Below are positions 26,501 to 29,500 of a DNA stretch of 64,000 nucleotides, one piece after another; the first letter of the stretch is position 1, and each line of letters begins with the position of its first letter. Position numbers: made by a program. Origin of the DNA: Candidatus Bilamarchaeaceae archaeon (GTDB taxonomy: Archaea; Micrarchaeota; Micrarchaeia; Anstonellales; Bilamarchaeaceae); assembly GCA_038870635.1 (NCBI GenBank), contig JAVZJR010000001.1, positions 106,797-170,796 of the forward strand. The letters are read 5' to 3'.

Positions 26501-29500
26501 ATTCTCAAATTCAACGCTTTTTGATAATTCTTTAAATATACCTTCTGGCTTCGGCACTTCTATTTCATAACCAAACTCACTATTTAAGCGTGTTATCTTG
26601 GAGAACGCACCACCAGTTATGTGCGCTATTCCATGGATATCACAGACATCTATCATCTCTAAAACAGCGTTAACGTATATTCTCGTGGGTTTAAGCATTT
26701 CCTCTAGCCATTCTTTACCTTTTAACAGCTTTCGCGCAAGGGTATAGCCATTACTGTGTAGACCACTACTCTCTAAACCAACAATCACGTCACCACTAGA
26801 AATATCATTTCCATAAATCTGTTTTTTTATTCTTCCAACAACTGTAAAAGCAAGATCAAAAGGCCGGCTGCCACCTTTTATCACGTCTGGCATTATAGCA
26901 GTTTCACCACCAACTATCGCGCAATTGCTCTCTTCTGCACCAGCCACAAGACCTTTTGTTATTTCTTCTACTAGTTGTTCATCTTCTTTTGCAAGCGCAA
27001 GATAATCAACACCGACAAGAGGTTCCCCTCCAACGCAAAGTATATCGTTAACAGACATAGCAACTGCATCTATTCCCACAGTATCGTATTTTTCAAGTTC
27101 TTGCGCCACGAGTACTTTTGTGCCTACTCCATCTGTATGAATTACAAGTGTTTCTGATCCACACTTAAACAAACCGCCATAGTGACCAAAAAGTGGAAGA
27201 GGTTCGCCGAATCCCTTTCGGAATGGAAATGTTTTTTTTATACTCTCCCATATAGAACTCTGAATTTTCTTAACTTTTGGTATGTCGATTTGATATTCCA
27301 TGTCTTTTTTTGGAATACTAAAAATATTTAATAATGTTGTTTGTTTAATCATTTTGGTAATTATGGTCTTTGGTTCGTTCGCAGAATTCGCAAAGAAAGT
27401 TATGGATGCTGCTAAAAAGGGCGGGCTGTCAGCAAGAGACTTAAAAAGATTGGAGAGACTTTTAGAAAAGGATGGAAAAAGAAATAAAATACTCGCAGCT
27501 GGACTAGTAGCCGCAATGAAAACGGGGGCTTCAGAAAAAGAGATAGAAAAACTTGGAAAACTTTTTGAAAAAGCAAGTGAGAGAATAGCGAATGGAAAAG
27601 CTCCATTTACAGATGCAGATGCACAAATACTCCGTTCAATGCTTGAAGGCGCGGGCATATCAAAAAAGACTAGTAAATGGGTATCAAAAAATATTGATGA
27701 GATGCTTGCTGCAGAAATAAAAGAGTTTATCACTGGAAAAAAAATAAGTAGAGTTGTTATACCAAAGAAAAGCGAAGAAGAAAAGAAAACGCTTGCAGTG
27801 AGGTGAAAGCTTGAAAATTAAGCTTACACCTGAACTTGCGTATCTCATAGGGCTTTGGAGAAAACGTCGTTCTTTTGAAGGGCTAGGAGTTCATGGTGAT
27901 CAAAAAATTCTAGAAACGTTCTCGAAAGAAGCACTAGAACAAAAACTCACAACGCCAGATAAACTTCTCACAAATGGAAAAAAAGTTTATTTTTACCATA
28001 CGGCGTATAAAAAATTTTTTAATCAAGTTGAAGAAGAACAACTCGAGAGGTTTAAATATCTAAATGAATACGCTGCCAATTATCTTGCTGGGCTTTTTGA
28101 TGCAGTAGGAGAAATAGATGAAAATGGCGTTGTTTCTCTATCAAAGCTAACTAATGAAGATGAGTTAATGCTATTAAGGTTAGGATTTAAAACAAAGAGA
28201 AAAAAAGAGAAATGTATAATAGAGAAACCACTCGTCTTTCTCTCATTTATAAAAAACTATGTCAAGATATCAAAAGAGAACAAAATATTTGAAATCGTGG
28301 AAAAAATAAAAAAATAGCGCTAAAGCTCTCCTACTCTTCTTTTCATTTTTCTCTTGAGTCTCTTTCTCTTCTTCTTTACCCACTTCCAGCGCATTCTGTT
28401 TTTTTTCTTCCACTTTCTTGGCTTTGCACCCATCACTATCCCTCAAAGTAAATAAACTAAAGAACAACTATGATTAGTTAAGTAAGATTTTAAAATGCAT
28501 TGAAGGCAGGTAATAATTACTAACAACCAACGAAGCCTTCCAGGTTATCTACCATTGGCTGTTTTTTTGCGATTTCGTTTTTTTTGCTCAGAGATTTGCT
28601 AATCTCTTCTAATCTGCCGTTTTCGCTGGAGCCAAGACTCCTAGCTATCTCGTCTTTTTTTAAAATTTTTTTTAAATCAACCAAAAACACCACCTTAGTA
28701 TTCTTCAATGTATATTTTTATACATTATTGATTTATAATATACGTTATAGTAGAAATATTTAAAAAGCTTGTGGAAGAAGAAAAATCATGTGGGAGAAGA
28801 TTAGTAAAAAGTTTAGTGATTACCCGGCAAGAGAAGCAGTAGCCAAAAAGATGATAGAATATGGATTAAGAATTGGAAACAAGGGAAAAATATTTTGTGG
28901 TGATATCGAAATAAAAGATAGCGCCCTTGCGAAAAGTGTTGGAGTTGATAGAAGAGCAGTTCGAACAACTATAGATGCAATAAGAAAAGATGATGAGCTA
29001 AAAATATTATTTGCAAACATATTGCCTGCAGGTGCATTGTTGAAAAATGTAGCAAAAGAATTAGGTTATGGTGCTGTTGAGATAGAAGCAGATGCTAAAA
29101 AACCTGGCATATTGGCGGCATGTGCAACTCTTTTAGCAAAAAGACAAATAAGTATAAAACAAGCACATGCTGATGACCCTGCACTTGTTGAAAAACCAAA
29201 ATTAACTATAATAACAGAGAAAAAAATACCTGGTGAAATAATAAATGAATTTTTAAAAATAGATGGAGTGAAAAAAGTTTCAATAATTTAATTACTTTTT
29301 TTTCTCCGTGATGAGGATTCCGTCTATTATGCCATAGGCGTAATTTGCCGCGCCAAAACTGCTAAAGTAATCCCCTTTTTGGTAAAAATGCATCGCATCG
29401 TGTAAATAATTTTTTGCCCAAGTGTAAGCATCAGCATATTTTTTATTAAGACCTAAATTCTCAAAGAGCAAAAGAATCTCTTTTAACTTTTCAACATCTT

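What a model noticed while it worked through the whole genome (the two positions that open the first line are those of the whole stretch)
27811..28317. A domesticated, catalytically dead LAGLIDADG homing endonuclease is a single-copy core gene of Micrarchaeota
The unannotated 168-aa g00153 is a two-motif LAGLIDADG homing-endonuclease fold that lies in no intron or intein, has lost the catalytic acid of both motifs, and is a single-copy gene in almost every Micrarchaeota genome. It is an archaeal counterpart of WhiA-type domestication, most likely a DNA-binding factor.
Evidence so far: Model pLDDT 87 aligns over 140-160 residues to I-DmoI, E-DreI, PI-PfuI (Z 14.5-15.5, rmsd 2.6-3.1) and WhiA (Z 13). 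One copy in 30 of 31 order genomes and 38 of 41 phylum genomes, frames 157-242 aa. In 101 aligned homologues the catalytic eighth position is R/S/K in motif 1 (Arg19) and C/V/S in motif 2 (Val99), while the helix glycines and Asp97 are 92-95% conserved. No Pfam or NCBIfam hit at relaxed cut-offs; searches LAGLIDADG+Micrarchaeota and +domesticated+archaea+WhiA showed no such gene.
(Added by a program. Inside this text positions count along the whole contig: contig position 106,797 is position 1 of the stretch shown here. "Call 12" and the like, gene names such as g00115 and contig names such as C1 are that model's own, and its searches are not shown. The text may have been shortened before it was handed on; [...] marks where a part breaks off. 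The agent that wrote the report below was given it as the finding of a first reader that could run no searches.)

Follow-up and report, generated by a model that had tools for sequence, protein, structure and literature searches.

The report
Tamed endonuclease born in rRNA intron
This gene of tiny symbiotic archaea began as a DNA-cutting parasite inside an intron of the 16S ribosomal RNA and lost its cutting residues. It has been kept ever since, still encoded by the excised circular intron RNA in some lineages and moved out to an ordinary gene in others, which points to a cellular job nobody has identified.

Summary
The ORF is real: a two-motif LAGLIDADG fold lacking both catalytic acids, one copy in 100 of 121 Micrarchaeota genomes. 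In 31 of 99 genomes examined the gene fills a roughly 500-nt bulge-helix-bulge intron of the 16S rRNA (after E. coli ~1101). In 32 it lies just downstream of an uninterrupted 16S; in this genome's family it is unlinked. RNA contigs show the intron spliced (2 studies) and circularised (3 studies). Relatives with intact catalytic motifs occupy the same site in other archaea and decay normally. The dead family never does: dN/dS 0.07-0.29 inside and outside the intron, gene tree tracking the 16S tree, several independent escapes, never both forms in one genome. One 16S clade lacks it, so it is not phylum-wide. The intron ORF was already printed as a hypothetical protein of unknown function (PMC8784108). 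Domestication is well supported (~0.9). The job is inferred: an rRNA-processing or assembly helper acting in trans (~0.4) over a WhiA-like DNA binder (~0.3).

The parts
27811..28317 (+). Free-standing copy of the dead LAGLIDADG gene (168 aa), descended from the ORF of the 16S rRNA intron at E. coli ~1101. This genome's 16S gene lies on another contig (G000:C7:20545-22114) and is uninterrupted at the site.
27844..27870 (+). Motif 1, LIGLWRKRR (residues 12-20); catalytic eighth position is Arg19 (Asp in live relatives)
28084..28110 (+). Motif 2, LAGLFDAVG (residues 92-100); catalytic eighth position is Val99 (Asp in live relatives)
28051..28071 (+). Family-specific inter-domain linker motif F81-K82-Y83-x-N85-x-Y87; F-K-Y aligns to a gap in the three live relatives; candidate new functional patch
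   Evidence: F81 84, K/R82 87, N85 90 of 99
27800..27806 (+). Ribosome-binding site GAGGTGA, overlapping the stop codon of the upstream ORF
27363..27806 (+). Upstream all-helical ORF of no known family (about 147 aa, start inferred); abuts the gene in 22 of 22 f1 and 5 of 5 f6 genomes; probable operon partner acquired after the escape, not family-wide
   Evidence: (30 of 121 genomes)

Best explanation
History (shown or strongly supported, about 0.9): a LAGLIDADG homing endonuclease in a BHB intron of the 16S rRNA lost both catalytic acids in the ancestor of most Micrarchaeota and became a host gene while still inside the intron. There the intron is cut out of pre-16S rRNA and circularised (shown for one named genome). 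The protein is presumably translated from the circle or the precursor (inferred). Because the cell needs the protein, the intron can be lost only after the ORF has been copied out. This happened several times, usually to just downstream of the 16S gene; the window's copy is the unlinked end state, in a two-gene operon. Function (inferred, about 0.4): a non-catalytic nucleic-acid-binding helper of ribosome production acting in trans, binding pre-rRNA or immature small subunits through the new basic and aromatic patch (K51, Y62, H/N63, F81-K82, N85) and aiding folding, BHB processing or assembly. It would work like a maturase freed from its own intron.
For: States in 99 genomes: 31 intronic, 32 downstream on the same strand (112-4403 bp from the 16S 3' end), 1 upstream, 35 not linked in the span fetched. 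No genome has two matches. The site is seen uninterrupted in 58 of 68 free-copy genomes and not seen in 10. BHB ends. Spliced joint in runs X2 and X3, circle joint in X2, X3 and X4. Live relatives with both Asp at the same DNA site (prob 98.8, E 1.3e-16). dN/dS 0.07-0.29 in 15 pairs, dS saturated in 9, both states. Gene versus 16S distances r 0.72, 81 genomes, 0 of 999 permutations. One clade of free copies rejected, p 4.7e-5; within f7/f8 p 1.6e-6. All 38 complete dead-family introns in the metagenome scan keep an intact ORF, while live-type introns at the site include 4 truncated remnants and 8 ORF-less hairpins. Coding-region RNA structure median z -3.4 in introns, -0.85 downstream, -0.2 unlinked: the RNA constraint is lost after escape and the protein kept. 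For an RNA-side job: born in and mostly kept beside 16S; net charge median +8 to +9; strand positions 28, 30 and 58 vary (K/R in 26, 24, 38 of 99) while K51, Y62, H/N63, F81, K82, N85 are 84-97 of 99; no second copy of the old site in this genome (best other match 5 of 20 mismatches).
Against: No binding, protein-level or knockout data; translation from the circle is not shown. In 2 of 23 complete introns the circle has no stop codon, and 11 of 23 ORFs run into the 3' exon. 27 genomes (f1, f6) keep the gene far from 16S, beside an unrelated ORF. In the downstream copies I folded, the gene lies past the predicted 16S processing stem and a T-tract, so adjacency may be a by-product of how it moved. 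Gene-less genomes still carry other 16S insertions, so it is not needed for intron removal in general. Two genomes inside the carrier families have an intact 16S and no gene found (G094, G051), and one copy has an internal TAG (G119). Deep branches of both trees are weakly supported.
Confidence: 0.42

Rival explanations
1. Same history, but the protein is a WhiA-like DNA-binding factor (transcription regulator or chromatin protein, perhaps at the rDNA).
For: The fold is a DNA-binding saddle. Net positive charge. The K/R67-K/R68 pair is kept (74, 80 of 99). WhiA is the precedent for loss of the acids (PMC3384342 passages).
Against: No helix-turn-helix domain. No fused form found among 400-2000-aa proteins, a weak test. 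Base-reading strand positions vary and the hairpins are shorter than in live relatives. No extra copies of the old site in this genome. The same review says WhiA's LAGLIDADG domain may have given DNA binding up to its HTH.
Confidence: 0.3
2. Cis-acting maturase needed only to splice its own intron; free copies are leftovers.
For: The ORF fills the intron and is never degraded there. Structural match to the bI3 maturase (Foldseek E 2.5e-3). Maturase precedent.
Against: Free copies stay under purifying selection (8 finite dN/dS values 0.07-0.29, 8 saturated) in 58 genomes whose site has no intron, including all 22 f1 genomes as carriers.
Confidence: 0.05
3. Immunity factor: the dead protein sits on the intron-free rDNA site and shields it from live endonucleases.
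For: Live-type genes at this site were seen only outside the carrier families (G118) or in 16S genes distant from them. Of 58 intron-free carriers seen, none is invaded.
Against: It is equally conserved where the site is already interrupted (7 finite dN/dS values 0.09-0.24). Base-reading positions vary although the site is conserved. Only 1 of 10 non-carrier genomes is invaded, too few for a contrast.
Confidence: 0.07
4. Still a nuclease or nickase, using a rearranged active site.
For: D97 (97 of 99) and D117 (89 of 99) are conserved.
Against: Both are also present in the live relatives, and D97 is the sixth, not the metal-binding eighth, motif position. The lysine after strand 1, invariant in live relatives, is not kept (K/R 24 of 99). 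Vertical inheritance shows no homing.
Confidence: 0.06
5. Protein-protein adaptor unrelated to nucleic acids (for example with the upstream helical protein), or a neutral relic.
For: The upstream ORF abuts the gene in 27 of 27 f1 and f6 genomes. The new motif lies in the linker, off the saddle (inferred).
Against: The upstream family was found in only 30 of 121 genomes, so it cannot explain most carriers. Neutrality is excluded by dN/dS.
Confidence: 0.1

Closest known systems
ARM-1 and ARMAN-2 16S rRNA insertion ORFs (ARM1_0169, UNLARM2_0643; Sakai et al. 2022, PMC8784108)
   Same: Same family and site. The ARM-1 ORF (161139-161627, supplement row) lies in locus L127 and scores 60.6 bits against the family model; insertion 522 nt.
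   Different: The paper found no homology beyond ARMAN-2 and left function and splicing open. It does not note the fold, dead motifs, selection, free-standing copies or escapes. It labels the site E. coli 1093; my alignment gives about 1101. Recalled, not seen: Baker et al. 2006 (Science) reported the 519-bp ARMAN-2 insertion, weak LAGLIDADG likeness and its excision.
Archaeal rRNA BHB-intron homing endonucleases (I-DmoI, I-Tsp061I, I-PogI family; Thermoproteales 16S introns, PMC4496867)
   Same: Fold, BHB junctions, structured intron RNA, circularisation; live relatives at the same DNA site.
   Different: No catalytic acids, no decay, vertical inheritance, kept after intron loss. The known ones spread and then degenerate to remnants and hairpins.
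WhiA/DUF199 (domesticated LAGLIDADG transcription factor of Gram-positive bacteria)
   Same: Two-motif LAGLIDADG fold without catalytic acids, single-copy host gene (Z 12.5).
   Different: No C-terminal HTH; 14% identity; separate origin, with the intron stage still visible; target unknown.
Intron-encoded maturases (fungal bI3 and I-AniI; plastid MatK, recalled)
   Same: Intron-encoded protein that outlived its mobility. MatK likewise persists free-standing after loss of its host intron (recalled).
   Different: Those act on self-splicing group I or II introns. Here the intron is BHB type, spliced by a protein enzyme, and no maturase activity is shown.

Membership tests
LAGLIDADG superfamily (two-motif monomer) | Two alpha-beta domains packed through two motif helices | tested here: met
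   (Z 13.9, rmsd 3.0, 145 aa to I-DmoI)
Active LAGLIDADG homing endonuclease | Asp or Glu at the eighth position of both motifs | tested here: not met
   Arg19 and Val99; both acids in 0 of 99, against 3 of 3 live relatives
Active LAGLIDADG homing endonuclease | Spread by homing, then decay | tested here: not met
   gene tree tracks 16S tree; 38 of 38 complete dead-family introns intact; purifying selection
Active LAGLIDADG homing endonuclease | Cleavage of the intron-less allele | not testable with these tools
   needs an in vitro assay
Archaeal BHB rRNA intron ORF (family level) | ORF inside an rRNA insertion with bulge-helix-bulge ends | tested here: met
   31 of 99 genomes; junctions; not met for the window's own copy
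Archaeal BHB rRNA intron ORF (family level) | Precise excision and circularisation of the intron RNA | tested here: met
   519-nt skip in 2 of 4 runs, 519-nt back-joint in 3 of 4 runs, on named locus L150
WhiA/DUF199 | [quoted passage not shown] | tested here: not met
   168-aa single module; no WhiA family hit in Pfam or NCBIfam
WhiA/DUF199 | LAGLIDADG domain without catalytic acids | tested here: met
WhiA/DUF199 | Promoter binding and transcription control | not testable with these tools
   only an indirect scan for the old site, negative
LAGLIDADG maturase | Binds and promotes splicing of its own intron | not testable with these tools
   indirectly doubtful as sole role: kept under selection in 58 genomes without the intron
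Phylum-wide core gene of Micrarchaeota | Present in all major lineages | tested here: not met
   100 of 111 genomes in 12 families, 0 of 10 in f10, f11, f14, f16, f17; 8 of those 10 form one 16S clade

The most novel reading that the evidence does not exclude
An indispensable host protein of most Micrarchaeota whose ancestral messenger is a circular RNA excised from the 16S rRNA precursor. It is a tamed homing endonuclease that now serves ribosome production, makes the intron undeletable until the gene has been copied out, and has escaped to the chromosome perhaps ten times. Every stage (live parasite, dead intronic gene, 16S-adjacent gene, unlinked operon gene) survives in living genomes.
Probability: 0.4. 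Interest if true: 0.92.

Novelty: new variant of a known kind. Interest (0 to 1): 0.8.

Why it matters
Known endonuclease domestications (WhiA, HO, maturases) are seen as finished products. Here the live ancestor type, the intron-bound tamed stage and repeated escapes all exist side by side. It answers part of a question left open in print (what the Micrarchaeota 16S insertion protein is and whether the insertion is spliced). It offers a candidate natural circular mRNA for a conserved prokaryotic host gene and explains why this intron persists when other archaeal rRNA introns decay. The test is direct, since ARM-1 and A_DKE are in co-culture. In practice, 9 of 11 misses inside carrier families coincide with missing or partial 16S assemblies, and genes inside rRNA are easily left unannotated.

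Tried and rejected
Complex prediction with the upstream helical protein: no verdict. Fold search of that protein: best Z 6.0, nothing clear; no usable Atlas hit. Remnants of 16S exons or intron stems around downstream copies: none seen by eye in 32 loci; one locus has a 41-nt duplicate of the 16S tail (L058). So the route of escape is unknown. A 16S-leader hairpin as possible target: a similar element also occurs in a gene-less genome (G056), and my start regex missed most f7/f8 loci; dropped. Extra copies of the homing site in this genome: none. Rfam near the gene: nothing at E<=0.1. Viral contigs: no relative, single-protein query. Longer fused forms: none among 400-2000 aa, weak test. Expression or proteomics of the A_DKE ORF: none of my 6 terms occurred in the readable supplements of PMC8975820; one PDF had no text and two large tables could not be read; bioRxiv supplements are closed and may bear on translation. 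Kadnikov et al. 2020 was not held. Run X1 showed no splice joints and looks DNA-like. Contig depths were not used as expression levels. Range outside the phylum was tested only indirectly: 39 of 46 intron-borne family loci carry Micrarchaeota labels. The other 7 (4 'Marsarchaeota', 1 'Hadarchaeum', 2 unclassified) look mislabelled or misbinned: L162's protein equals L154's, and L171's 16S is 80% like a Micrarchaeota f12 gene.

Full report
Observation. The ORF at 27811-28317 (+) is real: TTG start, 168 aa, with a ribosome-binding site matching this genome's 16S tail. A model from a 101-row alignment (pLDDT 96.6) aligns to E-DreI (Z 14.1, rmsd 3.1, 161 aa), I-DmoI (13.9, 3.0, 145), PI-PfuI (13.8, 3.9, 159), I-Tsp061I (12.9, 3.6, 155) and WhiA (12.5, 3.6, 147), far above unrelated rows (Z under 4). 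Pfam LAGLIDADG_3 does hit weakly (E 0.011; 6 of 101 members), and NCBI names 4 of 120 listed homologues LAGLIDADG endonucleases. In 99 genome copies the eighth motif position is acidic once in motif 1, twice in motif 2 and never in both.

Distribution. 100 of 121 phylum genomes have exactly one match (the tally includes the unpublished G029, left out of all later work). A profile search of the 21 negatives found no further member. In 12 families the count is 100 of 111. Of the 11 misses, 7 have no 16S match at all, 2 have only partial 16S, and 2 (G094, G051) have an intact 16S and no gene found. Families f10, f11, f14, f16 and f17 (10 genomes) lack it, and the 8 of them in my 16S tree form one clade (support 100). 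It is a near-universal gene of most of the phylum, not all.

Many matches lay near contig ends, so I scanned their surroundings: the gene sits inside the 16S rRNA gene in many genomes. Of 99 genomes, 31 carry it in a 16S insertion, 32 downstream of the 16S 3' end on the same strand (112-4403 bp), 1 upstream and 35 with no 16S in the span fetched (f1 spans were only 1.5 kb each side, but the listed 16S matches lie elsewhere). The insertions are 462-633 nt, filled by the ORF, with a 4-bp helix, two 3-nt bulges and a stem. Removal restores the normal 16S sequence. The site follows position 1099 of a 1540-nt E. coli 16S, about 1101 in standard numbering (the 2-nt offset rests on recalled numbering). 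Free-copy genomes have the site uninterrupted wherever seen: 56 of 68 by motif, G066 by eye, G119 by continuous alignment, 10 not seen. This genome's 16S (C7:20545-22114) is uninterrupted. A pattern scan of species genomes gave 53 loci, 46 with this family in the intron, including ARM-1, A_DKE and Fermentimicrarchaeum. The pattern misses a common 16S variant, and these loci probably overlap the G set.

RNA evidence. On the named A_DKE locus L150, contigs of 4 runs from 4 studies were laid (4 of 21 listed). Two runs show the exon-exon joint skipping exactly 519 nt. Three show a back-joint of 519 nt in 549-nt contigs, the circular intron. One run shows neither. Translation is not shown. Of 23 complete introns parsed (8 of 31 not parsed), 12 ORFs stop inside the intron and 11 run into the 3' exon. 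In the circle, 9 of those 11 meet a stop after the joint and 2 have none, so the precursor may serve as message in some lineages.

Origin. G118 (f10) has at this site a 214-aa ORF with Asp at both eighth positions. It is a clear LAGLIDADG_3 member (E 5.5e-12) and homologous to the family over its length (prob 98.8, E 1.3e-16). Its BHB register is shifted by one base; with the repeated A this is the same DNA site. A metagenome scan (80 loci, not de-duplicated) shows the contrast. Live-type introns appear as 6 full-length, 1 cut by a contig end, 4 truncated remnants and 8 ORF-less hairpins of 31-56 nt, the usual homing cycle described in PMC4496867 (passages and section 5 read). All 38 complete dead-family introns keep an intact ORF; 6 more are incomplete or unparsed, and the rest are not introns or show too little. 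Two Desulfurococcaceae genomes hold 216-218-nt remnants of the live type.

Domestication. In 24 hand-picked close pairs, dN/dS is 0.07-0.29 in 15 and dS is saturated in 9 (16 free pairs, 8 intronic). One copy of 99 has an internal stop (G119). Gene and 16S tree distances correlate (r 0.72, 81 genomes, 0 of 999 permutations). With the live proteins as outgroup, the unresolved base holds intronic rows of f9 and f13. Intronic versus free needs 14 changes on the gene tree (at least 4 forced by strong branches) and 11 on the 16S tree (91 rows, 9 left out as too short). One origin of free copies is rejected (p 4.7e-5; within f7/f8 p 1.6e-6). A dead enzyme cannot home, so repeated loss of the intron with rescue of the ORF is the simplest reading (inference). 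The coding region folds much better than synonymous shuffles in introns (median z -3.4; 22 of 31 below -2) than downstream (-0.85; 5 of 32) or unlinked (-0.2; 3 of 35) (12 shuffles each; kin are not independent). After escape the RNA constraint fades and the protein stays.

This copy. Here the gene follows an all-helical ORF of no known family that abuts it in all 22 f1 and 5 f6 genomes but occurs in only 30 of 121 genomes. It is a late operon partner.

Function. Nothing shows it directly. The protein is basic (median net +8 to +9). Strand positions 28, 30 and 58, invariant R, K, E in the three live proteins, vary across the family. K51, Y62, H/N63, F81, K82 and N85 are conserved at 84-97 of 99 and differ from the live proteins; F-K-Y is an insertion. 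That the strands are the base-reading face follows from known LAGLIDADG structures; I had no coordinates to check exposure. A fixed-sequence DNA reader should keep its reading residues, so I favour a structure-binding helper in ribosome production acting in trans (about 0.4) over a WhiA-like DNA factor (0.3). Against it: 27 genomes keep the gene away from 16S; downstream copies lie beyond the processing stem and T-tract; gene-less genomes have other 16S insertions. A cis-only maturase and pure immunity each fail in one of the two states.

Literature. Sakai et al. 2022 (PMC8784108; passages and supplement rows) describe the ARM-1 insertion protein as hypothetical, 25.4% similar to the ARMAN-2 one, with function and splicing uncertain. 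Golyshina et al. 2017 (PMC5498576; passages) mention 16S introns in Mia14 and ARMAN-2. PMC6125680 (passages) concerns group I introns at other sites. PMC5468238, PMC5864196, PMC7308576 and PMC12918454 had no relevant passage for my terms. Baker et al. 2006 is recalled only: it probably noted weak LAGLIDADG likeness and excision for ARMAN-2, so the intron itself is not new. Searches for Micrarchae or ARMAN with LAGLIDADG, intron, homing endonuclease or insertion and for archaeal domestication (listing only) returned no paper on the dead motifs, selection, free copies or escapes; subscription journals are not covered. The scan's notes hold nothing on this family. Two notes describe other endonuclease genes just downstream of 16S genes, so that landing place may be general.

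Verdict. A real, domesticated LAGLIDADG gene, and more unusual than first read: its intron-encoded, circular-RNA stage survives and it escaped repeatedly. New variant of a known kind; interest 0.8.

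Noticed in passing
window 28320-28433 (-): 37-aa lysine/arginine-rich ORF converging on the gene, resembling ribosomal protein eL41/eS32 (likeness recalled; no Pfam hit); same place in 4 genomes (G000, G064, G066, G074).
   Followed up: partly
window 28788-29291 (+): TrpY-family regulator (NCBIfam NF053754, 212.5 bits).
   Followed up: no
L208 about 2452-2496 (G031); L203 (G066): Short hairpin insertions in 16S about 8 nt upstream of the family's site, at E. 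coli ~1093. There are two neighbouring sites, so the label '1093' in print may cover both.
   Followed up: partly
L033 3791-4480 (-) (G119): The only copy with an internal stop (TAG after residue 123, frame continues): pseudogene, assembly error or read-through.
   Followed up: no
L056 and L075 introns (G022, G079): Intron length is a multiple of three and the ORF has no stop in the circle, so the circle would encode an endless repeat.
   Followed up: no
L053 2156-2785, L088 766-1683, L112 221-799, L180: Other LAGLIDADG ORFs with acidic motifs in or near 16S insertions of Micrarchaeota; several 16S genes are split into 4-6 pieces.
   Followed up: no
G000:C7 about 20435-20460 and other 16S leaders: Conserved TGGAAATC-hairpin-GATTTGAC element just before the 5' strand of the 16S processing stem; possibly the C/D-like motif of archaeal pre-rRNA (recalled).
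   Followed up: partly
L081, L054, L079, L100, L115 (after the 16S T-tract): Recurring short palindrome AGCGCAAGC/AGCGCGAGC between the 16S trailer and the gene.
   Followed up: no
L176 (G051) and L208 (G031): 16S genes of genomes assigned to different families are sisters (support 99); one may be misbinned, which weakens G051 as a real loss.
   Followed up: no
L138, L159, L160, L162, L171: Records labelled Marsarchaeota or Hadarchaeum carry Micrarchaeota-type 16S introns and proteins; probably wrong labels or bins.
   Followed up: partly
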